A stretch of 64,000 nt of DNA from Bigelowiella natans CCMP2755 (GCA_000320545.1 ADNK01000004.1:37844-101843); one strand, 5' to 3'. Positions 1 through 63,334 are shown, numbered from the stretch's first letter. Program-made: numbers and translations. Notes: generated from the letters alone by a model not told the origin.

Positions 1-3000
1 GTGCCTGGATGGTGGTTGCATCGCTAATAATGCCGGCTGGGGTAGTCAAGGGAGCGAAGATGATCGAGGTTAACGCTGGACTTGGATTTACAACTGTAAA
101 GGACCAATCTGAAATGGTGATATCGACGCCATCAGTGGTCGTCGTTGCCGCTGTAAGCCCTACAAAGGCACCATCCGTAAAGATATCGAATTCTTCAGCT
201 TCCACGGAGACCTGCAATTGGGGAGAGCGGCTATTGACAAAGCCGAGAATGCTGCCACGAGCGCGTGTATCCCCAAATCCAGCACCGGGGAAGTATGAAA
301 TTGTGATGTTGTAGCTTTGCCCATGAGTGAGGCCTATGGATTCACTGGGGTCATCTGTGAATCGATCCGTAGCTTCATCCGCCAGCACTATGCCATCCTG
401 CAACGAGATGTGAAAACCGGCGTGCGAAAAGGTGGGATCTCCCTTCTGTGGGTCCTGGAGCGCGTCGAATTCAATAGCGGCAGCATTGAGGATACCCTCG
501 TAGCCTAATCCAGCAGCTGCTCCCCCTCGTGCGCTGCCTGAATTGGATTGAATCACCAACGCAAATCCAGGGACTCGGGTGCCTCTGCTATCACCCAGGC
601 TACCGATCGTGACCGTGAAAGACGTTGAAAATCCGTCACGTACAGTCAGACGCTCCGGGACACCATTCACTGCATACCAAACAGCAGAGGACGACAGCTC
701 AAATGAGGGATCGGCGCTTGCAATGCGGAGATCTCCGTTTGGTAAGACAGCCGTCATTCCTTGGCCGTTTTGTGTGTCAAACAGAGATGATCCCAGCGCA
801 CCGGTGAAGCCACCAGGGGGGAAGCTGAACGTTTCGTTGGACCCGGACACCGCGTCACAGATTGAGCCTCCTGGAAACTGCCAAGAGATCTGTGGCTCCC
901 AAGCACTAGACCGATGCACAAAGAACAGAGACATTGTGTATGCGATGTCCTCCACAAGATCGACGTTGTTCGACGCTGCTCCTGGTGGCGGGTTTATCCA
1001 TGTCAGCGAGCCGAGGTTAAGCGTCGTGGTGGAAGGCATCTCCTCAATCGTGGTGTCAGCCAGAACCAATCTCCCGTCGATAAATACCCACAGGTAGTCT
1101 GAGGACGAGAATTGAACGCTGGTGCCCGGACGATACACAAACTGTGTGATTATGTCATAAGTGAAGAAGCTATTGGTGGTTGTATTCGGGTCGAGCCCCG
1201 TGTCGAAACCTGCTGCATTGATGGGGAAGAAGGGCTGGAAGACCCCCTCATAGACGGATCCCGGCTCACCAGCATCCCCCGATATCAGTCCAAGCACAAT
1301 CGTCGTGGTTAATCGTGTGTTCACAGCCGGAACATCGTTGAACCAAGTGCCAAACTGAGCCTGCGATACGCTTCCTGACGGTGCATTGACGTCGAAAACG
1401 GGTCGCAAATTGTCGTCAAGCTGGCCCTCGAGGAAGTTCGGATCCGTCAGTGCTGCTTGGTTTGTGGGAATGCCCGTGTCCATCTGATCATCGACGCGGA
1501 AATCCCTTACGATGCCAGTGACAAATATGAAGTCCCGCTCTTGGACGATGATGGGTACGCAGAAGGTCACCTCTGGAGTCGGGTCACTCGGTGCTCCGAC
1601 ATATGATCCCACGGTAGAGATGGCAATTGCACACAGGTTCAGATTCGGCTGTCCTAGCTCTGGAGTAAAGGAGAACTGGAGCTCGCAGAATTGTGTCATT
1701 CCGTTACATGTGTGCGCGATTGATGCTGACCGCGTTTGCGCGAAGCTAAACGTGATGGCGGTCATGAATCCAGCGGGTGCATACGCCCAGATACCGAAGC
1801 TAATCGATTGCCCAATGAAAACTTCGCGAGGAGGTGGGTCGAAGATGTCTATAGTCGACACGGGGGGGGGGCCACCGATCGTGTCACGGACTTCTACGAA
1901 GTAGGGCGTGTTGCCTTGCTCGTTAACATCGAAGAAGATGTCGAGTGTGTTCGAGTTGCCCCATGAATCCTCGACGATAAAGGACATTGCATAAAGACCG
2001 TCACGATCTGGCGCCCACGTCATCACTCCCGTCTGCGTGAGCTGCGGTACCACAAGGCCACGCTGGTCAAATATGTTCCCGTTTACGTTGAGGCCTGATT
2101 CCTGGAAAGTACTGAATCGGAAAGATAGGTTCGGATCGAACGGACTGAGGCATAGGTTACGGAGTGTGATTTGCGACTGGATTTGCTGCCCACTGCGATA
2201 AGGCCAAGGAAAGATGGCGAAGCTAGAGCAGTGTGGGTTTTGCTTGATCCCATTATCGACGATATTGTTAATGTTCACTAGGGCTGTGATGGTCATCCTT
2301 TCCCCGCTTTCTGTATTCCGTACACCCGTGGTCTGTCGTGCGTCAGGGGAACTTCCGGCACGATATGTCGTAATCTCTGGATACGTGTGAAAGTGAACCC
2401 GTTCGAATTGCAACCAGTTTTGACGACCTGCGTTGATTCGTACGCCATCTTCATAAACTCGATCTTCCGTCGCAGCTTCAGAGGAGGGCGTAGATCCACG
2501 ATAATGCCAAGTAAAAGCGCTTGGGGCGCAGTTGTTGTTGTTACAGTTGCGTCGAAATTGGTTTCCGCCGTCGAAGTCATATTCAAAAAAGAACTCTGCA
2601 TTTCCGAACAGATTCCTCCAGCCTATGTGTATTTATGCTAAGTTCCATCGTTCATTTTGACTCTCGTCCATTTTTTCTTTTGATATCTCCTATCGCTACC
2701 AGGATGGTGGAATCTCTTTCATTAGTTACTCTAAGGACGGGTGTGCACGCATGCGTGTGTTTGCATATATAATTTTTTTTTATATGTGTTTGTGTTGTAA
2801 GCGTAGATTGATTGCTCATAGTTACAGTTTGTGGTTGTCCTGCAGATTTGGTTTTCTGCGTCTCTGTCCTGATCCTCCGTCCAATAATCAACGGAAGGGT
2901 TGCTGTTCGTGAAACCACGGTTCTCTGCTGTTTGTCTATCATCAAATAAGCACCATGTGCATCAATGTAAATGTAACGGACACTTAGACGATTCAAAGGC

Positions 3001-3370
3001 GTTAAAAGTATAAGATTAGCTCACGTAACTGCCAGCTGCGTCTCACAGCGGTGTAAAAAGTGAACTCGATCTCACGTGGGTTATTCACGTCTCTGCACCT
3101 CCAATCTGTCAAAGAAGGAACCAGGTGAAGGGGATATATGCACATATTCAAGTGTGCTGAGCTCAAGAGAATACATTCTTGTTTGTAATCCCCTCAAATC
3201 TTACATATCTCTTATGTTTACTCAAGAAGCAAGAAGAAAGCACCAAGCAAGAAGGAAGCAACGAGGAATCATTAATCTTACGCCATACTCAGAGTTCCAT
3301 ATCGATGGTGAGTGCATGAGGCAAAGCCGGCAAGCAGTATCAACGCACAAGTGTACGCTGATGACACCAT
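1..3370 (-). CDS. Secreted multi-domain protein: signal peptide, fibro-slime/PA14-like domain, legume (L-type) lectin domain; 3' end runs off the window
   Basis: ATG at 3370 gives MVSSAYTCALILLAGFASC|THHRYGTLNWRC. Three GT-AG introns in compatible phases lead to one ~2.6 kb open exon (2622 to <1), absent from the ORF track because it has no stop in the window. Fibro-slime motifs GIVRDF...FGTWFNDVPAVN...FFPI...NSFFTYDIITQFVY...LWVFIDGRLV; lectin motifs GFSTSF, GFALVIQ, GLGYEG, AIEFD, VGLTAAT, ISDWSF. Confidence 0.85.
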
Positions 3371-3439
3371 CGGATTTCCCAGGTTTGAAGGTTGAGAAGC
3401 AAAGCCTTCTTTATTTAAAAAAGGTCGATGAAGATGTAC

Positions 3440-3488
3440 AATTTCTATGATTTCAACTTCTATGGTTTCAATTTCTATGATTTCTAAC
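3440..3488 (+). repeat. Short tandem repeat (~15 bp unit, about 3 copies, TTTCAATTTCTATGA-like)
   Basis: aatttctatga tttcaacttctatgg tttcaatttctatga tttctaac, just upstream of the fibro-slime gene start. Confidence 0.6.
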
Positions 3489-4301
3489 TGGAAACCACCA
3501 CCTTATTATCTTCGATTGTCTCAATGAATGGAGTCAGCTTCTCAGAGCTGAGTAAGACCCCTCTGGAGGCCTGGAGGGAATTCTGGGTCGAGGCTAGAAT
3601 GGCTGCAGTCAGCGTTAAAAACGGAGACCTTGATTGTTTTTTCCCCGTTTGGCGCGTGCACGGCATGATCCACAAAGTTATGCATCCTGTTTTGCGCAGC
3701 AACTGTCTCGCTGATCGAAGTCAGATCGTCATAAAATCCACAAACGTCCTTGGATTCTGTCCAATGAAAGCATCTATGGGGCACAATGTCCTGCAACGGC
3801 ACTTGGTCGCAGCAGAATCTAATGTGAATTAAGTGACGGCAAAGTGTCTTGTATTGCCTGAGCATGCACGCCATCCGGAAAGGTAGCTCTGTGGCATCAA
3901 GTATCAATAGTAATGTACGCGGACATACGACGACATGATTTCCTCGCATCAAGATGTAATAATTTGCCTGCGTTCTTCCTATTTTCTAGGAATACGGGGA
4001 ATTTTCCTCGGTTCCGAAAGACTCGGCCCACACTTGGAACGAGGCGAGGCCATTTTTCAGGCGTCGTACTTCGCCGGTACACATTTGTAAGAAACTTCCA
4101 GCAATTGTCGGGCGTCAAACGTGGCCAAGATCGGTGGAGAATGGGGTATTTTTCAAGTCGTAACGGGAATTCGTATCCCGTTTCATTCACTGTTTTCTGA
4201 CGCCGAAGCTTTGACATTCATCGAAAAGAAAAGAGTCCGTGACTAGATCTACACAACTCAAGAGTCTTCAAGCCACGAACGAAAGACCTGTCCAATCAAA
4301 G

Positions 4302-6032
4302 ATGCTTCTTACGTATGCGGAGAAAATTGGAACTGTATTCAGAGGGTGGTTTCGGTGCCCTTTGGCAGAGGAAGCGGTGAATCTCCCAGCAACACCATTT
4401 TACATGTACTTGCAAGGATCAGGATACTTGAAGAAGAACGAAGAGGTTCTGGACGACAATGGATGCCTTCTAGATCAGTATTTGAATACGAAGAACATTC
4501 CACAAGTTGCCCTTGGGCTGCTTCTGTTCTTCACCTCGGCATTAGCTTTCATATTTTTGGCAATCTTTCGGATGTACAGAACGAAACATGTATCGAAGGA
4601 GCAAGATTCATTCAAAGGGGAGGTAGAGGTTGCGGTAGCTTTTGCAGAGGTGAAAGCACGAGAAGCTAGTAATGATGCAAAATCTAAAGCCACCATTGCG
4701 GAAGCAGAAACAAGAGCTAAAGAAGCAGAGGAAGCAAGAATAAGAGCAGAGAAGGAATTGGCCAAACTTAAGGCTAAGATGGAACAGCAAAAAATTGAGA
4801 GAGACCGCAAGGAGAAAGACAATGAAGTTGTCGTACAGATAGGAGATCAGGAAGGGAATGCTAAGCCCGGTACGACTTCAACTGAAGAAATTGATTTAAA
4901 AGGAGATGCAAAGAGTCAAAACCAAAAGCCTGGAGATACCGATCCTCACGAGAAACAAGATACAGGAAGTTTAGAGAAAACAATGGAGGGATCGTTCGGA
5001 GAGGAGGATGAGAAACTGGAACCTAATCATGATGAAAAAGAGACCCCTAAAGAGGCTCAGATTAAAGACAAGGGCTACCACCTGGAAGAACCTCAATGCT
5101 GGGAACAGGAACAAAGTACCACATCATTTGAAGTGGTAAGCCGTGGAGAGTACGAGGTCATCGTGACAACTAACAAATCAAAAGATGGAGCATCTAATGA
5201 GGAAGACAAGAATGGAAACTTGATCGACAACGAGGAGAAAGGTGCTAAATGTTGCATACCACAAGATGATAAGCCCAGCAAGGAAGACCCTCGATTTCAA
5301 GAAGAGAGTGAAGGCGCTGGGTTGGAAAAGACTGGAAGCCTCATGAAGGCATGCACAAGTGTAAAATCGATGGACGATAAGAAAGACTCTCCAAGCAAAG
5401 ACGACGAACAGAAACACATTCTTCATGAAGAAGGAGAATCTCCAAACCACGATGAGGAACCAGGACAAGAACAGCAGACTGACACTAAGAAACAATTTCC
5501 GACTGACACTAAGAAGCAATCTCCAACCCATGCTGGGGAACAAGGACTGAAAAATACTAAAGCAGAGAAGCCTGGCACACAGGTGGGGGAGAAGCTTCAC
5601 ATGAAGGAGCTTCGTATTTGCAAAGGACTGAAACTGATCAGTCGTAGAATGGGAAAGGAATCCGATAGTTGCGGAGAGCTTAACCGTACCAATTGCGGCG
5701 GCGAAAAATTCGAAATCAAGGAAGGAAATCTCAAGATCAAATCTGACGAGCTGAAGCAGGGAACGCATAAAAAGACAGAAATAATGATAATGGATGAAAA
5801 GCGAGGGCGAATTCAAAATGAAAAAGAAGCTCTGGAAAATCTTGAAGCCAAACATAGGGATGGCTCGGCACGGCAAGGCATACCCAGCTCTCCACAGCAC
5901 AAGAACCCATTTGCAGTTTCTATGATACTCATCAAAGATATGGGAATTCAGAAGCCAGATGAAGAGATTTCGCGTGTTTTGTCCTCTGTTGATGGTGACG
6001 TCAGCAAGGCTGTTGCAGTTCTTCTTCCTTAA
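4302..6032 (+). CDS. Intronless single-TM protein with coiled coil, charged low-complexity region and C-terminal UBA-like domain
   Basis: 597-codon ORF (first ATG 4302). TM segment VALGLLLFFTSALAFIFLAIF; heptad-like EAETRAKEAEEARIRAEKELAKLK; C-terminus IKDMGIQKPDEEISRVLSSVDGDVSKAVAVLL fits the UBA pattern (MG...L...GDV..AV..LL). Confidence 0.75.
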   Translation: MLLTYAEKIGTVFRGWFRCPLAEEAVNLPATPFYMYLQGSGYLKKNEEVLDDNGCLLDQYLNTKNIPQVALGLLLFFTSALAFIFLAIFRMYRTKHVSKEQDSFKGEVEVAVAFAEVKAREASNDAKSKATIAEAETRAKEAEEARIRAEKELAKLKAKMEQQKIERDRKEKDNEVVVQIGDQEGNAKPGTTSTEEIDLKGDAKSQNQKPGDTDPHEKQDTGSLEKTMEGSFGEEDEKLEPNHDEKETPKEAQIKDKGYHLEEPQCWEQEQSTTSFEVVSRGEYEVIVTTNKSKDGASNEEDKNGNLIDNEEKGAKCCIPQDDKPSKEDPRFQEESEGAGLEKTGSLMKACTSVKSMDDKKDSPSKDDEQKHILHEEGESPNHDEEPGQEQQTDTKKQFPTDTKKQSPTHAGEQGLKNTKAEKPGTQVGEKLHMKELRICKGLKLISRRMGKESDSCGELNRTNCGGEKFEIKEGNLKIKSDELKQGTHKKTEIMIMDEKRGRIQNEKEALENLEAKHRDGSARQGIPSSPQHKNPFAVSMILIKDMGIQKPDEEISRVLSSVDGDVSKAVAVLLP

Positions 6033-7015
6033 TGCACATTAACACTACTCTTCACAGGAGTCTCGTTCGAAACCACAATGTGATGCATGAATTTGTTGAA
6101 GATGTCATGCATTAGGACACTACCTGTATGTCAAGCCATGTTGATCTTCAAAATCAGCACTCTACGAAGCTATACTACGCCTACAAAACCTAGCTAGATG
6201 ATCCATGCTTCCTTCTTGGCAGACATGACTTCGCGCAATGAAGATGAAGATAATGGACGAGGTCAACATGTGCTGTGCATTGTGTACGTGTGTCTACAGT
6301 GTCAACACTCACACGCACACGCAGCAGCATGGCAGATGTATGCCAGCAGTCAGCATCCGCTAGAGCTCGACTTGTTGGGGTTAGTTATATGTGCGGTCGA
6401 CACGATCCTATGTACATATCTGGGCAGATCGCTGCATCACACATCCTACCGCAAGTGGTACATCTTTATTCTACATACATCTACGACATTTATAGGTCAT
6501 TGCAACGCAGCTCAAAGTGACGCATGGCTCGTCAATGCGCTTGCTAGCTTGATGAGTTGCCCGTACAACAAACGATCCTGGTTACATCGTCTAGACGCAT
6601 ATGCAGCAAATATTCTTTAATTCATACACTATACATGTTAGTAATCGCACGCTGGGTCATGGCTATACAGCACCAGCAGCTACTTTCTATCATCATTATT
6701 CGTAGGCCGTTTCCTTCATGGATTCTTCGAGTTCTACAGTTAATTTGACTGATCGCTAAATCATCAGCGCTCCACCTTGCCTATGTGAGATAGATGCTTA
6801 AGTAAATGGTCCCTCGAAATCGTATTCCTCTGATCTAGAAACTGCCTCTCGGTCGATATTTTTTTACCTTGTACTGAATTTTTTCCCTGTAGTTTATTAT
6901 GGCGTGCACGCCAGGCTATCATGTTTAACGTCTCATAGCATTTTGGGCATTTTATCCTGATTACAACATCAAACTCACATCACAGAATGAGCTTCGTGAA
7001 CTAAATTACCTTCTC

Positions 7016-7500
7016 TCAGTAGCCCCGCATCGTAGCGTTGCTGTACATTTTGGGCACTTGAAGTATGTTGTGTATTTGATACGTATCTGCGATTTGCAGG
7101 TACATTTCGGGCACATAATGACGGAAGCATTCTTGGGCAGTTGCATTAGTTGGCGGCAACTTGGACACATGGTTGTAAGCTACACGAAACCAATCCACAA
7201 CAGTCTCACAAAAGATAACAACGTAAATTAAGGAAATTACCATTTCACCAACAGGTTGCGTAATCGCAACGGGTCTAAGGCGATCTACATCAGCTATGCC
7301 TTCCGACGTCTTCAAATCGTCACCTGCTTCATTGGGTGAACTGAGGTTTTCATGACTCTGGTTGAAAAGGTGTATACCTCTGGCATCCGGATTCATCAGA
7401 TTAATTAACACAAGCGTGCGTGCCTGTAAGGGACTGACCACACCCTACGTGGTCCTTTTCTTCGGCCGTTGGGGAGGTGTCAAGGATCTCGAACATGTAC
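7016..7500 (-). CDS. Possible small hypothetical gene (weak)
   Basis: 141-codon ORF and plausible minus-strand donors (GAAATG|GTAATT, GAGAAG|GTAATT); no recognisable domain. Confidence 0.3.
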
Positions 7501-8375
7501 GAGTACAATTCATAATCAATCGAACGAAAAAATAACGAAAAATCCCCGATCTATTGTCAACCAAATTCAGCCGACAAATAGCCGACAGAAGAAGGAAATA
7601 CTCGTACGGAATTATTAATAATAAAATTAATTTTGACACCCTTGTTATTTCTCCGAAGAACAACTTCATAAATGAATTGCATTGAATACATGTAGAGAAT
7701 TTCTCTTTTGATACATGTTTTCCCAAAAAATTCCCTACGTGTGCTGATACATGTACGACGTAGAGCGGCCCGCCTCTTGCCCCGCTGTTTTTGGAGCAAG
7801 TGCACAACAGAGTTTGTCTGAACTGCTGACAAGCGCGCTTACTCTCCGGTTTTTATGTCGAAGTCATTTTTCGCTAACAATTTCATTACGTTTTAGCATA
7901 TTCCTATCAAATTCTTCGAGTTGCACTTTACAAGCACTTCCCCCGAAAAGCAAGAGTATTGGAAACTTTATCCATAAAGTAATAAATTAAAGAAAACAAA
8001 TATGTCGTATGTTTTAAATGATATGCACTTCAACAATATTTGCGTCTTTTAATGGTGCATAGTAGTCTGGGAACCGTATTTGGGCTAACTTCTCAACGGC
8101 CCTGCAAAGCCTCCTCCCTGCTCACCACCATTCTCTCCTCCGAAGTTCCCTTCCACCTTCTGTTTATGATTAGCGCCTTTACCGCTATCTACGATTCTCC
8201 TCGAACCCCAAAGGACGACGGATAGGAGGGCATTAGCTCATCTCTTCATTGCATTAATTGTTCAATAACATTGGATCCGTATTGGCAGTGAATTCTGAGA
8301 CTGCAGAGATCCATATCTACTGAGAGTAATTATAGTCTTCAAAAATTACGCAACTTTACTAAAGCATTTATACCA

Positions 8376-8753
8376 ATGGGAGGCCAAGCTTTGAGGAAGA
8401 GCGATAAGTTCCCCGCGCCACCTGGCAAAGTGTACATTCTGCGTTCCAACTATAAGGTTCATGTTATGTTCACCAAAATCTACAGGAATTCTTCTTCTAA
8501 CGTGTTGTCCTTGTAGGGTCCTGATGGAACTGCCTTAAAGAGAGGGACATTAGTCACTGAATTTCCGGGACATTCCTTTGGGATGGTACCGTTTAACCAC
8601 ATTGCAATCAGTAAGCTCAAGTACGACATCGAGAAGGACAAATGGGTGACCAGCAAATCTTTTGAAGCAATTCATCATGGCAAGCTTCAACCCATATCAA
8701 AGGAGAATATCCCTCCAAAGAGTGTGAGAATTTTCAAGCGCAATGGTACCTGA
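8376..8753 (+). CDS. Small (105 aa) hypothetical protein, 2 exons, possible N-myristoylation
   Basis: Exons 8376-8456 and 8517-8753 joined by a 60-nt phase-0 GT-AG intron give MGGQALRKSDKFPAPPGKVYILRSNYKGPDGTALKRGTLVTEFPGHSFGMV...RNGT*. Confidence 0.65.
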
Positions 8754-9714
8754 AGTTCCCCCTGCGGTAGTTAATTGGAATTTGGCATTGAAGTTAAATA
8801 GTTGCAAACCTTCGTGTTAGCTGAAGTGTCAAGATATGTGGAGTCCTTAGTACCGCATGTATTTCAACGTTTCGAGAAATGATTGTATACAAGCATGTTG
8901 TCTCACGCGAAAAATTTACTTATATCCTTTCATTTGACACAGCGATCGTGCCTGCTATGATCCATGCACGACTTGCATGTATCCTTTACATGTACACAAA
9001 CATCATCATTCCTGGACTATTTGATGCTACTTATGAATGCAAATGCAGGCCTTATATTGTACGTATGAGCATGCAGCATGATTCTAATTGAATGCATGGC
9101 TACTTATAAACGCTGTGACTACAATGCTGACATCATCAAGCGCTAGCTAGCTAGCCGCCAAGCTACGCTAGTAGTACGTGAGATACGGGGGCGATGTCGA
9201 TTTACGCATGTGCATGCTGTGCGACACATCAAGCGACGCTGCATGCTACTAGCTATGTCTCGATATCAACAAATGTAAACACGTGGCGCGCTCATATATA
9301 GCAAGCTAGCAAGCTATATCTAGATATAGCTGCTAGTTTAGCTAGGCCTAGCCTAGGCCTGTCTAGATGCATGCGTATGTGCGTAGCTGCTACTCGCATT
9401 CAGCTCATCTAGTACTAGCTAGCTAGCTAGTTGTATGCACTAGCTAGTGTACGATACACCCACAAATCAAAATAGCCTATGTAGCATGCTTTAGATAAGC
9501 CGAATGTATGATGCGTACGCTACACATTGGCTGCACCGTCTAGTAGAGCCGTACGTATATGCGTTGCATCCATTTCTAGATTTCTCGGCCCGTTTCTTTT
9601 TTATTACGCAACATGGTTCGAAACCTTAAGTTTCAAGGAAAATTGGTGGACAACCCTTCCCTAGTTCCCAGCAGAAATCAATGATTGACTCAAACCTACG
9701 GTCTTGGTCACTTT

Positions 9715-10800: not shown

Positions 10801-10892
10801 CTCTTTGGACAGCCTCACAAGGTTCTGGCATCACAAGAAACCACGCACTCACTTAACTGCAACGAACGTACACTTTTTCCAACAGATGATTT

Positions 10893-12547: not shown

Positions 12548-12552
<5 letters not shown>

Positions 12553-12593
<41 letters not shown>
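12553..12593 (+). repeat. (GA)n microsatellite
   Basis: About 20 perfect GA units. Confidence 0.95.
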
Positions 12594-12596
<3 letters not shown>

Positions 12597-48843: not shown

Positions 48844-48901
<58 letters not shown>

Positions 48902-53102: not shown

Positions 53103-53141
<39 letters not shown>

Positions 53142-56100
53142 AAATCAAATAATTCTACCGAGTCCATGATTCTGACTCCATGATGCGCCTCGTAGCGATC
53201 TTTAAGGCCTCTAAGGATAGAAATGGTGTCCGGCACGGTTGGCTCTTCAACATAAACCTTCTGGAATCGTCGTTCAAAAGCGGCATCCTTCTCAACGTGA
53301 GCTCTGTATTCGCCCAGCGTCGTAGCACCGATGCACCGCAGCTCCCCTCGGGCGAGCATAGGCTTCAGCATGTTTGCTGCATCCATCGAGCCTTCGGTTT
53401 TACCGGCACCCATTACCTAAAGAGTAAGAAATGAAGAGAAGAAGTTTAAGGAACAAAGATGGTGGGACTGTCTGCGAGTATGTGGATGATGATAAGCATC
53501 TTTGATGATGGTGATGATAATAACGATGTTGGTGATATGCTACCAGATGGATCTCGTCAATGAAGAGGATGATTCTTCCCTCTGCCTGCTTTACCTCGTT
53601 CAATACCTAACAAGTAGCAGAATTAAATAGTGCCAATACGACTAGAATCAATCATACCGACGACGACTTTAGCGACGACGTACATATATCTTTGCACCGA
53701 TGACATTCTTCTTATGTTCCAAATGTATACATTATGTAAGTGATAAGAAGTACCCCTTTTATCCTGGATTCAAATTCTCCACGAAACTTAGTGCCTGCTA
53801 CTAGTAATCCAATATCTAGCGACCAGACCTACATGAATTTATACAATATATATGCATATATATTATGTATATGCGTGTGTGTGTGTGTGTGTGTGTGTGT
53901 CAGTCATATACACATACATGATGAGCTTATCGCAGATTCTATTCTTCACTCGATTAATTCCACCACAACCACCACCACCACCACATTCCATAACCACAAC
54001 TATCATATAATGCTCAGGGCAGTACTTGTTGTTACCTCTGCGTTAAGCGATTCCGGAACATCTCCGTTCACGATTCTCTGCGCAAGGCCCTCAACAATCG
54101 CAGTCTTCCCGACACCAGGCTCTCCAACGAGCATGGGGTTATTCTTTGTCCTACGTGCCAAGATCTGGATGACTTGCCGAATCTCCTCGTCCCGACCAAT
54201 CACAGGATCTACTTTGCCTTTCGTATGTTTTTGTTCAAGATGAAGCAAAGCAACAACAACACACATGTGAGTAAGATAGTTATGTTAAGCCTGCTACAGA
54301 AACTGTGAAAAGAGACGAGTGGGGTAGATATGTAGGACTAGTTAGGTTACTCACCATCTCGCGCTTGTTTGCACACGTTGATTGCATACCTAATGACGCC
54401 GATGGTAGTTTTAAGAAGAGAAGAAGGCGAAGGAGGGAGAGGAGGAGGGTAAGGGGATTATTCGTGATGATGATGATGATGAGAATGGAGAAGAAGGCCT
54501 TTGATACATAGTTATTATTAAGACAAACTTTTCAAGTGCATCCCACTGATCCTCCGCATGTTCATCTGTAACTCTTTGCCCGGCTCGCATGTCCTAATAA
54601 GACGTAATGAAGAAGCAGCAGCAAAGTACGGTCAGATCAGAAAGGACGCCGTGAGAGCTGGAGATAATGAAAAAAAATGCTGCAATTATTGGAGTTAACG
54701 CTCTGGTTGCTGCCTCCCTCCCTCTCTCTCCCTCCCTCCTCCTCGACGCCATCTTCATTTTACGCAAACACTGCGTGCTTCTGGTGATATCTCACTGCTG
54801 CTAAGAAATACTACCCCCAGCGTGGATTTGAAGATGTCCTTATCAATGCCAATATCGTCGCGTACGAAGTTCTCCATCTCTGAGAGGGCGATAAGCACGT
54901 GGTCCACGGCGATGTGGCTATCTCCATTCTGATGAGAATTCAGTCAATGAACAATGATAATAAGCAGCTCAACGTCTCGATCATGGTGGTCGTTTGGTGG
55001 TGGTGATCCAAATGATTGATGATGATAGCAGCCATTGCTGGATTCAGTGTGCCGCATCCCTTCCCACAGTAGTATTATTACCTCCTCTCTGAGCTTGTTT
55101 GCACGATCAAGAACACGGAAGGATCGTGTACTCAATGCGACGGGGTCATCGTTTTGCCTACTTGCCATCTGACAAGAATTGATACATCAATCGTGCGAGG
55201 AGAAGGGTGTGTCATAGTGGTATTTACTTGAAATTCGTAAGGATTTAGAAAAAAAGGAGGAAGGGAAGAAAAGAAAAATTAAATGTTCTTTTGCGAGAAG
55301 AAAAAATCGATAGTCTTGAGCTATAGCAAGCAGGTCTTATCATTACCTTCGGTAATTTATCGATGACATCCTTAAGTTGCGCGACCACCGCGTCTCGATT
55401 CTTTCCAATCTGAATGATTTCAAACGACGAGAAAAACATATAAGCATAGCACAAGAGGTTGGGGGTGCAATACGAAGCGTATTAAACGATTTTCGGTGAA
55501 AGCGACAACGATTAGACGACTACAAACCTTCGTTAGAACTCGAGGGCCAAGATCGGTTTTGTTAAAGATCATGAAAGCAATATGCTGTGTTTCCACAAGT
55601 GCGTTCATATTTTCGGTGGCGTATGTCTGAGCCTCGACCAACATCTATATAGAAGGAAAAACCATACCATGGAAATTACCTCACTTTGAAAACAGACTAT
55701 TAAGGGGTGGCGGTGGTAAATAAAGAGCATATTACATCGTTGGTGGCATCGGTAAACTTGTAGTTCTCTCGTCCACCGCGAAGTACCATTAACTTCGAGT
55801 CCTGAGCAACAGAAAATTCGTTTCAAACATTTCACAAAATAAGTATAGGCCGAGATGGGAAATCTGCATAATAAAGGGAGAAATACTGCCCTGACCACTC
55901 TTCTGCTGCAAGTGCGAAACAAAATACGTAGCTGCATTGATAAACTGTATCTACCATGACTGATCTACTATTGTCATTGCCACTTCTTCCCCTAGCATCG
56001 CTGCTTCTACTACCTGCAGACTGGATCGTGAGTACGATGATTTTGGCGATTTTTGAACCCGACTTTGGGAAAGACTGCTGTAGGCACTCCCCTCTCGAGA

Positions 56101-56680
56101 CACGCTTGGTGATGACCGTGCTGTCATCTGTCTGAGAGTTGACTTTGCTGATCCAGCCAAAGATGGGAGAAATGGCACAGCGCCATCTCGACGTTCTGAG
56201 TGACACGCCACCACGCAAACAGATTAATTACAAACACACAAATTCTTTAAACAAGTTTCAGCAACCCCTCAATATGAGAGACAACACCAAGGGAAAATAA
56301 AAATAGACTAACACACACACATGTAAGGGAAGAAATGCGATCATATTGGCACGTAGTGGAGATTTGTACAATCCGCATTAAAGACCCCTACTTCTGTAAT
56401 TATTATGTTCATCCGTCAGCTGATGGTCATTACCTGCATTGAATCTGCTGGAAGGATGCAGATTATAGTTTTGATGCGAATAAGCACTTTCAGAAGGTTC
56501 GTTGTATGTGTATAGACCATCCTTTAAAGCTGGGCCCGGAGGAATCACCCTCGAGTACACACTGGTAGCTACTACCACAAGTGCACCGAAAACCAGCAAC
56601 AAGCTGATATCCGACGACGACACAACCCTCCTTGCTCGTCGTCGCGGCAGGGCCCCTATACCAAGCGAAGGGACATGCAT
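51089..56680 (-). CDS. HSP101: Hsp101/ClpB AAA+ disaggregase (eukaryotic cytosolic type) with ~150 aa N-terminal bipartite-like leader
   Basis: [82 protein letters not shown]. Upstream exons 56680-56434, 56195-56014 and 55801 onward splice in frame. Confidence 0.95.
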
Positions 56681-57744
56681 TATCCTTGATAATATGATAT
56701 GTTGGCGAGAGAAGTGGGGGGGGGTAGACTCCGGGCTTCTCTCTGGTTTTTCAGACACTAATGATGCTTGAAATATTTACAGATATCGGAGATAAGTACA
56801 ATATTTATGAAATACGACAACAAAAATAGAACTCGATAATAATAATTCTACGACATTTGGTACACGGTGTTTTGGCTACCGCGCACAGGTGCGTGTGCAA
56901 AGGCCCGTGGAAGCCGAGAAGAACAAAGGAGAAACTGTTTGTTGCGACAATATTCAGGAGTTGACGCATGGGAAAAATATCATGAAATTGCACTTGTTTA
57001 ACCGTCGAAATTCGAAAACATGATGTCAGATTCCACAACTAAGACATGCAAGTATGATCGTCGCATCCTCAAATTTCACAGGATCTATCGATTTCGCAGG
57101 TGTTGTCTGCTCTCCTCGAAAAATTAAGCTCTGGAGAGGCACGAGTGGATGATTTGAAAAACCAACCTCTTTTTCTTCATTGTCGCTAACATGAAATATT
57201 ATTAATTTTATTGAATTTATTGGTATGAAGTATGTTTTTGCATGTAAAAAAGGCGGAGAATTCCCAAACGAAATTTCCGAACTATAAATGTGTGTTGCTT
57301 AAATTTTGTGCACATTTAATAGATGAAGCAACAAATACATCCACATCCAATAAAAAATGCCCTGCATTTATAGTTGCTAGGCATTTGGCGCTGCTTTCGG
57401 CTGGGCTCAGGCGGGAAATCGATGAATGCATTAATTTTGAAAGATGATGAGAGAACACGCCTACGACTACCATGTCAATTTTGCTCTTTTTAGGTTGACG
57501 CAGAAGGATTATAACCACAACTTTTTTCGTTCAAAAATATTCATTCATTCTTCTCCCCTTCTCTGATTCGACACGGTGCACTTTCCAAGCCTTCCAAAGA
57601 GAGGGTACGCGACAGCCCTCACATTCTGTTGGGGAACGGTGATTTACCTGAAGGGAGAAGGCAATTGTTGTTTCGGAAGCAGTTCGATAGAATTTCAGAA
57701 GATTTCTAGTCGAACTGTTCGAAATTCATAAAGAGCAAAGACGA

Positions 57745-59307
57745 ATGGAGAAGCGAATGAAGAGTCGCTATGGAGAAAAAGCAGAAGAAAATTATCTTCG
57801 TCGAAAAAGTGACGCCGCCACTTGCAGCCGGGTTGAAAGCACGGTCGATGTAGAAATTTATCCTGTCGTTGCCACGAAAGAAAAATGCAAACTTCAGTCA
57901 ACTAAGGCATGTGCAAGTAGCATTACAGATAGATTCAAGGGAGAGGTCAATAGTATCACAAACGATTCTCCGAAGGACCGCCTAAAACTTCCGAAGAAGA
58001 AGAGAAAACTTAGATTCATCTCTTCGGGAATTGGCCTTGAAGCAAACATTTCCTGTAAACCATCCCTGAAACAGCGAAAATTCACCGTGAGAGGTATCAT
58101 GGCCATAACTGGTGTGAGGATCCTAGATTACCTTGACATTGAGGAAGCCGCCATTTGTCTCGATGTAATGAAGTTGGAAGAGCATGACAATTTGTGGTCC
58201 CATCTCTTGCAGAATATTGTGTCCGTGCGTGTGAAAGGAAACCGTCATGCTTTCATTCGAAGGTTCAATGAATGGAACTTTGTCGCAGAACACGGTTGGC
58301 TGAAAAAGCATCGAACCCTACGAAAATCATTTTTCCCTATTTTGTGCAACTGGCTCGTAGAACTCCATTTTGAATTGTTTGGGGATCATGCTCGTAAATT
58401 GATGTGCCGCAGTCCTTTAAACCCTATCCACCTCGCTATGAAGTACTTGTTTCGTTTCCTGTCTCTTGAGGCTAGTATAACAAGTAGCCGTTTGCAGCTA
58501 GTCGGAGTGTCATGCTATCAAATTTCGGTGGAATATGCTCTCGGTACTACCGAAACAGCTAAACTTGATTTGGACGCGAAACGATATGCTTACTATACAG
58601 ATAACGCATACACACCAGAAGAAGTCACAAACATGACTGCCAATATTAAGCTAACACTTCAGGATCAAAGAAAGTTTACACCCAGTGATATACTGGAGGT
58701 GTTCACACCAACTATGGCTCTGAACTCGTTGATAAGATCATTATCTTTGGAATCAAATATTCTTCTTGTTCTCTTTGCAAACTACCTCGTCGACCTCTGC
58801 ATGCATGACACATTTTTCTCACATATGCTTCCATCTGAGATAGCTGCCTCTGCAGTTTTCCTTGCATGTGAAATGGCCGAGCACGATTGTTCTGGCACCC
58901 TTCGGACAACAATTCTTTCGTTCTGTTACAGAAAATCTACTCATGAACTTCAGCACATGATAGCAACGATGAGAAAACTTTATGATGGGGCATGCATGCA
59001 AGAAACTGGGACGACAATATCAAATCAAATTCTTCCAAAGTATTCAATGGTAATCAAGCACTATTCGACGAAGTTTATGGAGTGGATTCAGGGGAAGTTA
59101 TCTCCAAAATATAGACAATGCCTTTTCAAAGACGAAAAGACAAATTTCAAAAGAGGAGAGTTTCGAGAGGCACTGTCGAACGCAGGGCAGCAGCAACAGC
59201 AGCAGCAACATGCTTCTTCTCAAGGTAATACAACTAGGACATTAAGTAAAGCAGCTATCAGCGAAAAGAAGATCGGCTGTAAAAAGAGAAAAATTGATGC
59301 TATCTAG
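57745..59307 (+). CDS. Divergent cyclin (cyclin N and C folds) with a possible F-box-like segment, intronless
   Basis: FPILCNWLVELH, IHLAMKYLFRFLS, RLQLVGVSCYQI, YYTDNAYTPEEV, ANYLVDL, LPSEIAASAVFLA; upstream ILDYLDIEEAAIC...LWSHLL; NLS-like KKKRK and KKRK. Confidence 0.8.
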   Translation: MEKRMKSRYGEKAEENYLRRKSDAATCSRVESTVDVEIYPVVATKEKCKLQSTKACASSITDRFKGEVNSITNDSPKDRLKLPKKKRKLRFISSGIGLEANISCKPSLKQRKFTVRGIMAITGVRILDYLDIEEAAICLDVMKLEEHDNLWSHLLQNIVSVRVKGNRHAFIRRFNEWNFVAEHGWLKKHRTLRKSFFPILCNWLVELHFELFGDHARKLMCRSPLNPIHLAMKYLFRFLSLEASITSSRLQLVGVSCYQISVEYALGTTETAKLDLDAKRYAYYTDNAYTPEEVTNMTANIKLTLQDQRKFTPSDILEVFTPTMALNSLIRSLSLESNILLVLFANYLVDLCMHDTFFSHMLPSEIAASAVFLACEMAEHDCSGTLRTTILSFCYRKSTHELQHMIATMRKLYDGACMQETGTTISNQILPKYSMVIKHYSTKFMEWIQGKLSPKYRQCLFKDEKTNFKRGEFREALSNAGQQQQQQQHASSQGNTTRTLSKAAISEKKIGCKKRKIDAI

Positions 59308-59563
59308 CAGCAGCAACAGATTAAGATTTCTATCCCAGCAATAGCAATGTGGATCTAGTGGATAGCGATCAGAGTCTGCTTCACGACAAATTTTGACAGA
59401 AAATTTCATGTGCATTATGATAAATGATATTTAATACATCACATTGCGAAAGTGATGAACCATCAACGGCACTTACAGCAGCTAAGCAGCCCACTCCGCA
59501 ACGTGCTGCGCGTCACGTACGTTCGCATGCATGCTGATGCTCAGCATGTATGTTTTGACCTGC

Positions 59564-59694
59564 ATGAGACGAATGCAATACTGTGCTTAAATATTTTCAA
59601 TGGTCATCCTAATGTAGTTACACAAAGTACTAGAGCAGCGACTACCTTTGTTGTTGCATTTGTTTGTTTCTGCTGTTACAACATGTGCTTCATG
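59564..59694 (-). repeat. Dispersed repeat, copy C (reverse orientation, diverged)
   Basis: ATGAGACGAATGCAAT...TTTTCAATGGTCATCCTAATGTAG...GCAGCGACTAC...GTGCTTCATG is the reverse complement of copy A. Confidence 0.75.
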
Positions 59695-60080
59695 CATGCA
59701 TGCCATTTGCACGTGGCCCAGTGTATGTACAGACACAAATGACGACAAGGATGACAAATGAGATTAACAAAACAAGTTGGCAGCACGTGAATTGCAGTAG
59801 CTCTCATTTAGACATACAGTATTTCGTTTGTCATCGGCCATCATTAATAAAGTCTTCTTGAACACCGTGTGGACAGCCGTAGTGATCACACAGATTTCAT
59901 TTCGCTAGCTAGTTTCGTTCGATCACATTATTGACCACACGACCACAAAAAGGACATGCTAGCATGTTGTCCCTCTACATATGCATGTATGCACACACGC
60001 AGCATGTATCGTATATCGTGTACATATACGTGCATGTGTGTGTGTGTATGGCTGGTCGTGGCTCTGCATAGTTGCGTATC

Positions 60081-60130
60081 AGGATGACTATTGAAAAAAT
60101 ATAATTATTTCATTACATCCGTCTCACATA
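60081..60130 (+). repeat. Dispersed repeat, copy D (3' half only)
   Basis: AGGATGACTATTGAAAAAATATAATTATTTCATTACATCCGTCTCACAT. Confidence 0.85.
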
Positions 60131-61264
60131 TAGGATGCTGTATATATAGCCGTGTGTGCGTGCGTGTGTGCGTGCTTGTGTGTGTGTGTGTGGTGTGTGA
60201 ATATACGCTTTGTATCATAGGGCTACCTTCGCATATCTACCTGTTAACTAATTATCGGTGCTCTACATATGATTAGCGTAGGTCTATGATGTGAAAAGAT
60301 ACGTGTACTAGAAAGTGTAATATACTGCTGTTCGGAGCCATATGACATCTAATGGCTCGACCTTATCACGCGCTATTTTTATCATCATTTGGCACACGAC
60401 ATCTTACACTAAAACTCGTACATCTTGGGTATTAGTTTAACGATTATACATAATTGTTTCAGATATTGGATTGCAAGTAATGTTTTAAACGTTACTCAAC
60501 CTGCGATATTCATTCTTCTCTTCTTTTGCTGAGAAAATTATACTCAAAAGATACTTGTGATATTTGCATTATGGACATAACGTCACCAACCAAGCTTCCG
60601 AAGTTCTCAGATGTATATTTTGCGCAGCAGCGATGCTTAGCATGACAGTGTGCACGCGACAGCGTGCATAATGTCATCGGTACGGCACGACAGAAGGCTG
60701 AGAGCGCAAAACAATTATGACTATGTTTATCTAAGTTTAGACATTTGTCTGAGCGTGTTTCATCATCATTCGCACCAGAGTTTGAATGCTTATCGTAAGT
60801 GAATGCTTATCGTAAATCTAGAACTGAAAGGATATATTCAAGCTCCATGAATTAAAGATATTGTAGAATAAATCGAATGGAGATAGCATTCACGCTTCGA
60901 TCAATGCAATGATTTTTTGTCCTCCTCCTCCTCCTCCTCCTCCTCCTCCTCCTCCTCCTCCGCTTCCTGCTTCTCTCACCTTGGTGAACTTTCGGTCGTT
61001 CAACCCTCTCCGAGCGAATCGTTGCGTTCTCTCGGATGAAGATGCTGGAGCGACGCCTTCGAAATGCCCTCAATTTCTGTGTTGCGTCACACATACTAAA
61101 CATGCTGGGAAAGTTGGCCGAAATAAGGCAGGAAACATGCTCTCATTCCAAAAATGGCCTGGGAATGAATCCTGCGTCAAGGTCGCACTCGCTCTGCTGA
61201 CGACAGTCGTACAGAACGATGGATCGCACCTGGCTTTACGTGGCCTGAACGCAAGAGGGCATCG

Positions 61265-63334
61265 ATGAGGGATGGGATCTCCTCCGGGGGGGATTCAGTT
61301 AGCCCGGGGAAAAAGAGATCTTCAAATGTACGGCATCGATCGGGCCGTGTGCAGAGGGCTCAAAAATCGAGCACAGGGGGAGCATGGAATGACTTCTCGC
61401 CAAAGTCAAAAACACGGAGTCTGCACATCTACCTGCTCATCATCTTTTCAGGGGCTTACATCGGGTGGGCACTGTTCACAATGACACAATATGACAGAAA
61501 TGGGCAAGAACCAGTTGCTCCCCCGCATCCCGCCCCCAAAATTCTGAAACCTGTTCCCAGAGGGGAAAAAATAAATTCAGAAAACACAGTCGGGAATATG
61601 CAAAGAGCCGGCGTGACCAAAGTTGCATCTTCTCAAGAGAAGAGGGAATGTGTAATGTGGGCGATCAATCTGAAAGGGGAACGATACACACACGATTGGT
61701 CTGCGTTGACGTACAAAGGTCTCACCTCGGATACCTTCAAGACTTTAACGGTAATGGCGGGCAGCGAAAAGGACCCAAAGTCAGGACTTTGTACCAGCTA
61801 TGGTCAGGACCAAAAAGTCCTGATTACAGAAACAGGTTATCTCGTTGGAGCCCTTTCCTGCTCGAATCAAGAGATTACAATTATCTCAAAAAGTAGCTCA
61901 CCCAGGCCATGTGAGCCTGAGGACGAAGCTCGAAAGGAGACCAAGGGGAAATATTCTGCCTACTATAAAGGACCTACTCGTTGTAAATATATTTATGAAT
62001 GCAACAGATGCGTTCGACACGGCTCGTCGGACACATCACCAGACAAAATTATAACAGGAGAAGATCCCAAGACGAAGTGCGTATGGTGTCCAAGCGCGAA
62101 CTCATGCATGGCGTATAGAGATGGCTCGGGACAGTTTCCATGCCCTGATGCTGTGGGCAAAGGTGGAGGATACCCGGTAGATAAGTGCCCAGGAAGCTCC
62201 GGGAAGAAATATTTGTCCTTTCAGTGGAACAACGGCCGAGTCAACAATAATATGGTTTCGTGGGCTGCTGCACTAGCGGTGGGCCAGCACTTAAACCGCG
62301 TCGTGATACTAGCACAACCGATACAAAAAGGGTCAGGCTTGAAAGGATACCAAAATGGAGACCCAAACCATGGCAAGTCAGCTTATCTTGGAATCCTCGA
62401 GGGTATGTGGGATTTGGAGTTCATACGTGAAAATGGGTTCGAAATCATCCTTGAAACCGAGTTAGAGGACAGCGTGCTTGATGTTGCATTATTCAAAACT
62501 CCCGCAGAGTGCGTTGTAAGAATAACAGAATTCCCTGACCCGGAAAAATATAAAGACTGCAAGGTGGTCCACCTGGCAGATCCTTTTAGATTCAAATCCT
62601 TTCGTGCCCAGAAGCCAAAGGAATTCATCCGGCCAGCGAAGTGGATTCGAGACGCCAGCGAACGTTTAATTAAGGAAAAAATGGGCACCCAATCGATTTC
62701 CGTTACCGTGCACCAAAGGCATCATAATTGGGGCCATGCTGATAAACATGGCTCCAAGTTTCTATGCCGAGGAATCCTGAAGAATATTCACAAGACGCCT
62801 GCAGGTCAAGATTACAGAAACGGCGTCAGGAAATGGGGACAACCGGAATCTGTGCAAAAGCGCATGCTAGACAACACACAGCTATCATGTGCCATGAATT
62901 ACGAAGAGCTACAGACGGTTGCAGCTTACTGGAAAAAGAAAATACCGGAGCACTTTTTCCTCGCTTCTGATAGGGAAGAGCTTGACCGTTACCAGGATAT
63001 GCTGAAAAACGGGGCAGTAACCATCGAGGAAGCTGATTATGCTCATATGCCAGAGATAAAGGAAGTTCTCCAGAAGCATCTTTCGTTTGCTTTTGATTGC
63101 ACCGAGAAATATTGTGCGAATTTGAAGAAAATCAAGCAACTAACAGGTGTATATCTGGATATGTGGGGCATGGTATCCGGTGATTTCTTCTTCGGCGGAT
63201 ACTACAGCACAATGTCTGACACTGTATGCTATTGGCGTGGGTGGAATAAAATGAACGCCTCAAACATCTGCTTCCTTCCGATGCGATTGCAGAAGAAATG
63301 GGTACGCCTTGGAAAGGACATTGACGATCAATGA
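61265..63334 (+). CDS. Type II membrane glycosyltransferase: PSI-like Cys domain plus O-fucosyltransferase-like (GT-B) catalytic domain, intronless
   Basis: 689-aa ORF; TM segment LHIYLLIIFSGAYIGWALF; PSI pattern C..CNRC..CVWCP..C..CP; fucosyltransferase-like motifs GRVNNNM, TVHQR, FFLASD, D..DFFFGGYYSTMS. Confidence 0.8.
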   Translation: MRDGISSGGDSVSPGKKRSSNVRHRSGRVQRAQKSSTGGAWNDFSPKSKTRSLHIYLLIIFSGAYIGWALFTMTQYDRNGQEPVAPPHPAPKILKPVPRGEKINSENTVGNMQRAGVTKVASSQEKRECVMWAINLKGERYTHDWSALTYKGLTSDTFKTLTVMAGSEKDPKSGLCTSYGQDQKVLITETGYLVGALSCSNQEITIISKSSSPRPCEPEDEARKETKGKYSAYYKGPTRCKYIYECNRCVRHGSSDTSPDKIITGEDPKTKCVWCPSANSCMAYRDGSGQFPCPDAVGKGGGYPVDKCPGSSGKKYLSFQWNNGRVNNNMVSWAAALAVGQHLNRVVILAQPIQKGSGLKGYQNGDPNHGKSAYLGILEGMWDLEFIRENGFEIILETELEDSVLDVALFKTPAECVVRITEFPDPEKYKDCKVVHLADPFRFKSFRAQKPKEFIRPAKWIRDASERLIKEKMGTQSISVTVHQRHHNWGHADKHGSKFLCRGILKNIHKTPAGQDYRNGVRKWGQPESVQKRMLDNTQLSCAMNYEELQTVAAYWKKKIPEHFFLASDREELDRYQDMLKNGAVTIEEADYAHMPEIKEVLQKHLSFAFDCTEKYCANLKKIKQLTGVYLDMWGMVSGDFFFGGYYSTMSDTVCYWRGWNKMNASNICFLPMRLQKKWVRLGKDIDDQ

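What the first reader, a model, noticed from the sequence alone, without database searches (positions are those of the whole stretch)
1..63334. Near-perfect strand alternation of genes (head-to-head pairs separated by tail-to-tail islands)
Orientation series: fibro-slime(-), UBA(+), weak(-), small(+), acidic(-), weak(+), VAP(-), DUF445(+), 4TM(-), ELO(+), renalase(-), hypothetical(+), DEP-reductase(-), hypothetical(+), MFS(-), NEK(-), EEP(+), Hsp101(-), cyclin(+), weak(-), O-FucT(+). The nine consecutive genes from VAP to MFS alternate strictly (1/256 under random orientation, not corrected for post-hoc choice). The genome appears built from bidirectional-promoter modules; the renalase-like/hypothetical start codons are only ~210 bp apart.
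Basis: seen in the sequence. Interest (0 to 1): 0.7.

Follow-up and report, generated by a model that had tools for sequence, protein, structure and literature searches.

The report
Alternating algal genes with terminator-side islands
In this stretch of a marine alga's genome 17 of 18 neighbouring gene pairs point in opposite directions, with short spacers between gene starts and odd palindrome-rich DNA between gene ends, likely because genes share both their promoters and their stop zones; whether this holds genome-wide is untested.

Summary
Its only tandem pair (NEK, MFS) is one kinase–sugar-transporter fusion gene, conserved in three related algal proteins. Its 'weak(-)' gene at 60.3–61.1 kb has no RNA in 4 runs. 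Corrected: 19 expressed units, 17 of 18 junctions alternate (P=7e-5 at random, 0.006 at 66%, the highest published rate I found; 15 of 17 for coding genes only). Stranded 3'-end reads or introns give the strand for 13 units, homology for 6. The DNA is chlorarachniophyte, probably Bigelowiella natans. New: ten 0.55–1.2 kb islands poor in CC/AA and rich in CTAG and palindromes lie behind 3' ends (8 of 8 convergent junctions, 0 of 9 divergent) and hold all five LINE 3' stubs. Best reading: two-slot modules sharing promoter and stop zone, an extreme of the Ectocarpus-type bias. No genome-wide tally was possible. The scan noted similar alternation in two other genomes (unchecked notes).

The parts
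1..4000 (-).
   Evidence: Pfam Lectin_legB E 7.6e-9; low minus-strand reads and no 3' peak at 2.6-3.9 kb
4204..6167 (+). Unit 2: single-exon membrane/coiled-coil protein with C-terminal CUE/UBA-like end
   Evidence: 605-aa frame; contigs 4204-6167 and plus-strand 3' reads; CUE E 0.031
6081..6700 (.). Island 1 (convergent junction 2/3)
6690..7480 (-). Unit 3: small multi-exon gene (ends estimated)
   Evidence: four CT..AC joints, minus-strand 3' reads
7719..9016 (+). Unit 4: small gene with two introns
   Evidence: GT..AG joints at 7978/8066 and 8454/8515, plus-strand 3' reads
8921..9600 (.). Island 2 (convergent junction 4/5), 37 CTAG per kb
9585..11200 (-). Unit 5: acidic (D/E-rich) multi-exon gene (5' end estimated)
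   Evidence: eight CT..AC joints shown, minus-strand 3' reads
11384..12041 (+). Unit 6: unspliced transcript, likely non-coding (longest ATG ORF 31 aa), divergent from unit 5
   Evidence: contigs in 3 of 3 contig runs, plus-strand 3' reads; ORF scan
12061..12620 (.). Island 3 (convergent junction 6/7)
12650..14650 (-). Unit 7: VAP/MSP-domain gene (ends estimated)
   Evidence: Pfam Motile_Sperm E 1.4e-5; minus-strand 3' reads
15270..17100 (+).
   Evidence: plus-strand 3' reads, low depth 1.03, and contig cover
17081..17980 (.). Island 4 (convergent junction 8/9); its right part lies in the 3' UTR of unit 9
17503..17750 (+). LINE 3' stub (end of ORF2 plus tail), 74% to L002
17691..20080 (-). Unit 9: four-transmembrane multi-exon gene (5' end estimated)
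   Evidence: minus-strand 3' reads, contigs from 17691
20772..22257 (+). Unit 10: single-exon fatty-acid elongase (ELO)
   Evidence: Pfam ELO E 8.8e-55; contigs and plus-strand 3' reads
22181..23040 (.). Island 5 (convergent junction 10/11) with LINE stub at 22769-22866
23050..24855 (-). Unit 11: renalase-like FAD oxidoreductase (3' end estimated)
   Evidence: Pfam NAD_binding_8 E 4e-9, Amino_oxidase E 0.0018
25065..26595 (+). Unit 12: conserved hypothetical membrane protein; ATG 209 bp from the ATG of unit 11
   Evidence: 51 relatives at E<=0.001; P0004 maps here
26921..27560 (.). Island 6 (convergent junction 12/13)
27700..35150 (-). Unit 13: pyridine nucleotide-disulphide reductase with a DEP-like N-terminal part (DEP read by eye; ends estimated)
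   Evidence: Pfam Pyr_redox_dim E 8.8e-13, Pyr_redox, Pyr_redox_2; ab initio models 81 and 83 flank it, leaving one number between
35486..38020 (+). Unit 14: multi-exon hypothetical gene (3' end estimated)
   Evidence: P0063, 425 aa from a 1465-nt contig, maps exon by exon on +
38061..38620 (.). Island 7 (convergent junction 14/15)
38814..45185 (-). Unit 15: NEK-like kinase fused to an MFS sugar transporter (one gene)
46180..49174 (+). Unit 16: EEP-family (CCR4-like) gene (5' end estimated)
   Evidence: eleven GT..AG joints, plus-strand 3' reads; Exo_endo_phos E 0.017
49201..50380 (.). Island 8 (convergent junction 16/17), the longest
50354..56724 (-). Unit 17: ClpB/Hsp101 with extra 5' exons at 55.8-56.7 kb
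   Evidence: Pfam AAA_2, ClpB_D2-small; one contig 56724-50401 and poly(A) ends at 50354
57560..59459 (+). Unit 18: single-exon cyclin
   Evidence: Pfam Cyclin_N/C; contigs and plus-strand 3' reads
59441..60140 (.). Island 9, behind the cyclin 3' end, with LINE stubs at 59544-59617 (-) and 60078-60130 (+)
60141..61200 (.).
61201..63334 (+). Unit 19: single-exon O-fucosyltransferase-like gene
   Evidence: 721-aa frame; O-FucT E 0.022; contigs from 61201
63281..63920 (.). Island 10, behind unit 19, with LINE stub at 63838-63953 (-)

Best explanation
The genes here alternate in direction, and the locus is likely built of two-slot modules, island <-gene | short AT-rich promoter zone | gene-> island, in which neighbours would share both a promoter zone that fires both ways and an untranscribed stop zone. 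Shown: the alternation; spacers under 1 kb between starts; islands that begin at or just inside transcript 3' ends and lie nowhere else; LINE 3' stubs only in islands. Inferred: promoters fire in both directions (one free side yields a non-coding transcript at 11.4-12.0 kb); each 3' end needs an island-type buffer before the next promoter, so a tandem pair still costs an island plus an empty slot (as at cyclin/O-FucT); new or relocated genes are expressed most cheaply in a free slot, which keeps the alternation going; islands are the one place where LINE insertions are tolerated or targeted. I expect non-duplicated gene-dense parts of this genome to alternate at about 75% or more.
For: 17 of 18 junctions alternate, 95% interval 0.73-1.00; stranded 3' peaks alternate for nine units in a row at 5.3-22.6 kb and for EEP/ClpB/cyclin. 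A window-wide composition filter finds islands at 8 of 8 convergent and 0 of 9 divergent junctions (Fisher P 4e-5); the other two islands also follow a 3' end. Island edges match contig ends (6167/6690, 9016/9585, 12041, 49174/50354, 59459). Islands: CC rho 0.47, AA 0.71, GpC 1.75, CTAG 119 vs 37 in shuffles, palindromes of 12 bp or more 20 vs 3.5; divergent spacers: AA 1.11, A4/T4 25 per kb vs 7. 5 of 5 LINE stubs lie in islands, which are 11% of the window. In 2 of the 3 outside loci an island lies behind what reads by eye as a gene's 3' end, and in the third a LINE points into one.
Against: One window, chosen because it alternates. Coding genes alone give 15 of 17 (P 0.038 at 66%, interval 0.64-0.99). 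Four of seven measured or estimated divergent spacers are 0.6-0.9 kb, long for one shared promoter; in Ectocarpus even pairs under 600 bp are regulated independently. Partners have unrelated functions. Island thresholds were set after seeing the profile, and 13 segments were merged by hand into 10. Nothing shows that islands do anything; they may be the mutational resting state of untranscribed DNA. About 23 kb, mainly 22.6-41.9 kb, had no RNA laid on it.
Confidence: 0.55

Rival explanations
1. A favourable run picked from a genome with only the known moderate bias (60-66% opposite-strand pairs). The islands are simply what untranscribed DNA looks like in this species and have no role in the order.
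For: At 62-66%, 3-8 windows with 17 of 18 are expected per genome; published rates reach 65.8% (C. merolae), 64.7%, 63.2% and over 60% in Ectocarpales. The finding was selected after the fact.
Against: Per window the chance is 0.002-0.006; the index held no other noted window of this genome, so there is no sign that many were screened; even the one tandem junction keeps island plus empty slot.
Confidence: 0.33
2. The islands are active boundary or terminator elements (protein-bound CTAG/palindrome arrays, cohesin or topoisomerase sites at positively supercoiled convergent junctions), and the need for them forces the alternation.
For: Strict association with 3' ends; CTAG z=14.7 and long palindromes beyond dinucleotide shuffles; TpA hypermutation alone does not give the profile in a simple simulation; convergent pairs anchor loops in Dictyostelium (abstract).
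Against: Apart from the LINE stubs, the repeat search showed no sequence shared between islands among the families it displayed; no 10-bp periodicity; CTAG runs in tandem (autocorrelation 6 at lag 4), as slippage would give; no functional data.
Confidence: 0.2
3. An annotation artefact: missed or merged genes create the pattern.
Against: Searches cover 40 kb and show no extra 3' peak; the merge of kinase and MFS rests on three full-length proteins; ClpB's leader is on one contig; ab initio numbering leaves one model between units 12 and 14.
Confidence: 0.05

Closest known systems
Opposite-strand excess of adjacent genes in Ectocarpus and other brown algae (bioRxiv 2024.02.19.579948; 2020.03.09.980763; passages read)
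   Same: Intron-rich algal genome of moderate size; neighbours tend to lie on opposite strands; divergent spacers short (median 409 bp there).
   Different: There just over 60%; here 17 of 18 locally. The passages read describe no compositionally distinct island at convergent junctions.
Non-random orientation in Cyanidioschyzon, Monosiga, Cryptococcus, Thalassiosira (PMC2871058, section 6 and Table S1 read)
   Same: Excess of divergent plus convergent pairs, 61-66%.
   Different: Lower rate; no rhizarian among the 64 species.
Vertebrate bidirectional promoters (definition from PMC2871058 passages; CpG-island link recalled)
   Same: Starts under 1 kb apart.
   Different: Spacers here are AT-rich (GC 0.41) with A/T runs, not GC islands; nearly all genes are paired, not a minority.
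TpA hypermutation of foreign DNA in B. natans (bioRxiv 2026.01.13.699255, parts 1-3 of 5 read)
   Same: Islands are CpA/TpG-rich (rho 1.45) and hold LINE stubs; mobile elements in L002/L003 are TpA-poor.
   Different: Islands are not TpA-poor (rho 1.10) and are CC/AA-poor and CTAG-rich, which that process alone did not give in simulation.
APE-type non-LTR retrotransposons (LINEs) leaving 5'-truncated copies
   Same: L002 has ORF1 and a 1160-aa endonuclease-RT ORF2; the window holds five 53-250 bp 3' stubs.
   Different: All five sit in 3'-end islands; clade and target-site duplications were not determined.

Membership tests
Ectocarpus-type opposite-strand excess | Genome-wide share of opposite-strand neighbours significantly above 50% | not testable with these tools
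   No genome held; the one gene table found has no coordinates or strand. Locally 17 of 18.
Ectocarpus-type opposite-strand excess | Divergent intervals shorter than tandem intervals | tested here: inconclusive
   Divergent about 0.18-0.88 kb against one tandem interval of 1.74 kb (59459-61201); n=1.
Bidirectional promoter pairs | Divergent starts under 1 kb apart | tested here: met
   7 of 9 measured or estimated: 209 bp ATG-ATG, 835 bp contig end to contig end, about 180, 240, 600, 690 and 880 bp estimated by hand from bin depths and contig ends. Pairs 1/2 and 13/14 not measured.
Bidirectional promoter pairs | One shared nucleosome-depleted region with two TSSs | not testable with these tools
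   No CAGE or MNase data; spacers are rich in A/T runs, which fits but does not show it.
Bidirectional promoter pairs | Co-expression of partners | not tested
   Contig depths are a poor measure by the tool's own note; only two of the window's genes, not partners, were located in the diurnal table.
Vertebrate CpG-island bidirectional promoters | GC/CpG-rich spacer | tested here: not met
   Divergent spacers GC 0.41, CpG rho 1.05, against CDS GC 0.50.
TpA-hypermutated foreign DNA of B. natans | TpA depletion with CpA/TpG enrichment | tested here: not met
   Islands TpA rho 1.10, above introns (0.82) and CDS (0.59); CpA/TpG 1.45.
APE-type LINE | ORF2 with endonuclease and reverse transcriptase; copies truncated at the 5' end | tested here: met
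   Exo_endo_phos_2 E 1e-17 and RVT_1 E 2e-16 in L002; five window stubs match only its 3' end.
APE-type LINE | Target-site duplications and clade | not tested
   No search or tree was run.
Kinetoplastid strand-switch regions | Long co-directional polycistronic gene arrays between switches | tested here: not met
   One unit per direction, each with its own 3' peak.

The most novel reading that the evidence does not exclude
This chlorarachniophyte genome is laid out almost wholly as two-slot modules: every promoter fires both ways, every 3' end faces a CTAG/palindrome-rich, homopolymer-poor island that acts as a shared terminator or boundary and as the landing ground for LINEs, and lost genes leave empty or non-coding slots. 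It would be the mirror image of dinoflagellate and trypanosome co-directional arrays and far beyond the 60-66% published for other eukaryotes.
Probability: 0.3. Interest if true: 0.8.

Novelty: new variant of a known kind. Interest (0 to 1): 0.55.

Why it matters
If it holds genome-wide, this alga would be an extreme case of alternating gene order and a clean system for asking whether promoter sharing, terminator sharing or transcriptional interference sets gene orientation. The islands give a sequence-only marker of gene 3' ends that could correct the annotation of this genome. The two-slot layout makes a testable prediction about where genes gained by endosymbiotic or lateral transfer get switched on. 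The test is cheap: a strand tally on the public annotation plus existing RNA-seq.

Tried and rejected
No whole genome was held, so no genome-wide tally. The diurnal-expression supplement of PMC5635652 (held cut, 6,289 rows) has no coordinates or strand. A separate minus-strand gene at 55.8-56.7 kb: rejected, it is ClpB's 5' part. NEK/MFS as a tandem pair: rejected. Islands as Helitron stacks or as a structured-RNA locus: the shared repeat is a LINE tail; Rfam 0 hits, tRNA 0. Islands as 10-bp phased nucleosome-positioning DNA: no periodicity of TA, CTAG, YR or WW. Islands as the product of TpA hypermutation: in a toy simulation TpA falls to 0.45-0.64, AA rises and CTAG stays near 2 per kb; adding extra transversions at dipyrimidine steps matches AA, CC, AT and GA but not CTAG or GpC. 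One search covered the wrong frame of a 35-38 kb exon and found nothing; one search used the right one. The 16-of-17 line printed is not a valid scenario; one search gives the correct 15 of 17. Pfam was run on 450 of the 477 stop-to-stop frames of 55 aa or more; the 27 left out lie almost all antisense or out of frame inside the cyclin and O-FucT ORFs, plus three in island 10. No listed holder was on record as RNA; one raw RNA run and five RNA-guessed contig sets were laid. Ten literature searches showed no report on gene orientation or such islands in chlorarachniophytes; PMC12730881 and PMC13746701 have no occurrence of 'orientation' or 'bidirectional'. The 2012 genome paper was not held, and bioRxiv supplements were not seen (for example Table S1 of the brown-algal paper); either may bear on novelty.
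Full report
Source and approach. No whole genome was held. The window is eukaryotic, about 45% GC, with short GT-AG introns. Near-identical proteins are named Bigelowiella natans gene models by their sources, and more distant ones Norrisiella and Amorphochlora. So this is chlorarachniophyte nuclear DNA, probably B. natans (inference). I fixed each gene's strand by Pfam on 450 of 477 open frames, by homologue searches and by laying RNA on 40 of the 64 kb.

RNA check, 2.6-22.6 kb. Run X21 is 3'-biased with first mates on the sense strand, as calibrated on ELO (+) and VAP (-), whose strands Pfam gives. Its peaks run + (5.3-6.6 kb), - (6.6-7.3), + (8.6-9.3), - (9.3-9.9), + (11.3-12.6), - (12.6-13.3), + (16.6-17.3, low), - (17.9-18.6), + (21.3-22.6). 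The bin 17.3-17.9 kb has both strands because of a repeat. Joints agree: CT..AC at 6779-7376 and 9744-10982, GT..AG at 7978-8515; 15 of 56 joints were displayed. The three genes marked weak or small in this part are all transcribed in the direction claimed. The unit at 11384-12041 is unspliced and has no ATG ORF above 31 aa, so it is likely non-coding.

Two corrections. First, NEK and MFS are one gene. The long MFS exon finds three longer proteins, 984-1046 aa, each with kinase and sugar-transporter domains. They align in order along the minus strand from 45185 to 38814. Contigs of two of the three contig runs cover every bin of 41.9-45.2 kb, and X21 has no 3' peak there. The joints across the fusion were not among the rows shown. 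Second, the weak(-) gene at 60.3-61.1 kb has no support: depth in its main bin is explained by the start of the O-FucT contigs, and nearby minus reads come from two repeat stubs. It may be silent in these 4 runs or absent. The exons at 55.8-56.7 kb, which looked like a missed gene, lie on the ClpB contig 56724-50401. The two hypotheticals are real plus-strand genes, and ab initio models 81 and 83 leave one number for the reductase between them.

Tally. There are 19 expressed units with 9 divergent, 8 convergent and 1 tandem junction; units 1-18 alternate unbroken. P is 7e-5 at 50%, 0.002 at 61.7% and 0.006 at 65.8%; the 95% interval is 0.73-1.00. Counting coding genes only gives 15 of 17 (P 0.001 at 50%, 0.038 at 65.8%). 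A 94.7-Mb genome would hold 0.1 such windows at random but 3-8 at 62-66%. Random orientation is therefore excluded; a moderate bias plus after-the-fact selection is not.

The islands. A window-wide filter for few homodinucleotides and many palindromic tetramers gave 13 segments, which I merged into 10; thresholds were set. Eight lie at the 8 convergent junctions, one follows cyclin, one follows the last gene, and none lies in the 9 divergent spacers. Their edges match transcript ends: 6167/about 6690, 9016/9585, 12041, 49174/poly(A) at 50354, 59459. Island 4 partly overlaps a 3' UTR. Pooled, they have CC rho 0.47, AA 0.71, GpC 1.75, CpA 1.45, TpA 1.10, CTAG 119 against 37 in dinucleotide shuffles, and 20 perfect palindromes of 12 bp or more against 3.5. 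Divergent spacers, 27 RNA-defined introns and CDS have CC 0.93-0.97, AA 1.03-1.12 and 2-3 CTAG per kb; the spacers are rich in A/T runs. There is no 10-bp phasing.

The repeat in the islands. Five copies of a 53-250 bp repeat all lie in islands, which make up 11% of the window. A pattern scan gave three short outside loci. In L002 the repeat is the 3' end of a 1160-aa endonuclease-RT ORF, so the copies are 5'-truncated LINE stubs. Read by eye, L003 has a plus-strand gene, then an island with a stub, then an LTR element pointing back; L001 has an island with two stubs facing a minus-strand gene end. These readings were not checked by RNA. B. natans has a published TpA-to-TpG/CpA hypermutation of foreign DNA (bioRxiv 2026.01.13.699255), and the elements in L002 and L003 show that signature. 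The islands are not TpA-poor, and a toy simulation did not reproduce them. Their origin stays open; tandem CTAG spacing suggests slippage.

How it likely works. Shown: alternation, starts under 1 kb apart, islands behind 3' ends, LINE stubs in islands. Inferred: a two-slot module in which a short AT-rich promoter zone fires both ways and each 3' end runs out into an untranscribed island. Two exceptions fit this. One free slot yields a non-coding RNA (11.4 kb), and the only tandem junction still has an island plus about 1 kb of empty slot (59.4-61.2 kb). Against it: four of seven spacers are 0.6-0.9 kb, partners are unrelated, co-expression is untested, and in Ectocarpus shared regions do not mean co-regulation. 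I give this 0.55, a favourable run on a 60-66% background 0.33, islands as the active cause 0.2 (overlapping with the first) and artefact 0.05.

Comparison and novelty. An excess of opposite-strand neighbours is known: over 60% in Ectocarpales, 61.7% of genes in divergent pairs in Ectocarpus, and 61-66% in four of 64 species. This window is a more extreme local case with an added feature, the 3'-end islands, that ten searches did not find in print. The 2012 genome paper and bioRxiv supplements were not seen. What I saw of each paper: PMC2871058 passages, section 6 and Table S1; the two brown-algal preprints, passages; the hypermutation preprint, parts 1-3 of 5; PMC12730881 and PMC13746701, term searches; PMC11754127, abstract and outline; PMC5635652, parts of its supplement. 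Two earlier unchecked notes of this scan report near-strict alternation in other protist genomes, there with GC-rich head-to-head spacers, so such extremes may recur. Verdict: real, a new variant of a known kind, interest 0.55, decidable by one genome-wide tally.

Noticed in passing
window 38814-45185 (-): A NEK-like protein kinase fused to an MFS sugar transporter, conserved in Norrisiella, Amorphochlora and a third transcriptome protein: a possible sugar sensor or kinase-gated transporter. I did not search the literature for this fusion; it deserves its own follow-up.
   Followed up: partly
window 55800-56724 (-): ClpB carries extra 5' exons with a hydrophobic stretch and an R/S-rich stretch that by eye resemble a bipartite plastid-targeting leader (recalled pattern, no predictor run); the contig link is.
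   Followed up: partly
window 11384-12041 (+): A well-covered unspliced transcript without an ORF above 31 aa, containing a roughly 70-bp direct duplication seen by eye; candidate divergent lncRNA or decayed gene.
   Followed up: partly
L003 2401-6162: LTR-retrotransposon DNA with only 13 TpA per kb; 47 of the 50 remaining TpA are in CTA or TAG context, suggesting that the published TpA hypermutation spares that context. The TpA-poor 3' part of the LINE in L002 does not show this (4 of 16).
   Followed up: partly
L002 219-5130 (-): A near-complete LINE (ORF1 489 aa, ORF2 1160 aa, both open) whose 3' kilobase is TpA-depleted (rho 0.04-0.45) while the rest is less so: hypermutation seems to act on one end.
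   Followed up: partly
window 27500-55000 versus 1-27000: Introns in the middle of the window are full of microsatellites ((AC)n, (AT)n, (ATC)n), whereas those in the first 27 kb are short and nearly free of them.
   Followed up: no
window 28100-35150 (-): A mercuric-reductase/dihydrolipoamide-dehydrogenase-like gene appears to carry an N-terminal DEP-like domain (motifs read by eye; no Pfam hit on single exons).
   Followed up: no
window 4204-6167, 20772-22257, 57560-59459, 61201-63334: Four coding genes are intronless in an intron-rich genome; all lie on the plus side of a divergent pair or empty slot. Possible retrocopies or transfers that took a free slot; too few to test.
   Followed up: no
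window 2653-2724 and 4596-4831: Short stretches matched by high-depth contigs that continue unlike the window: paralogues or repeated segments elsewhere in the genome.
   Followed up: no
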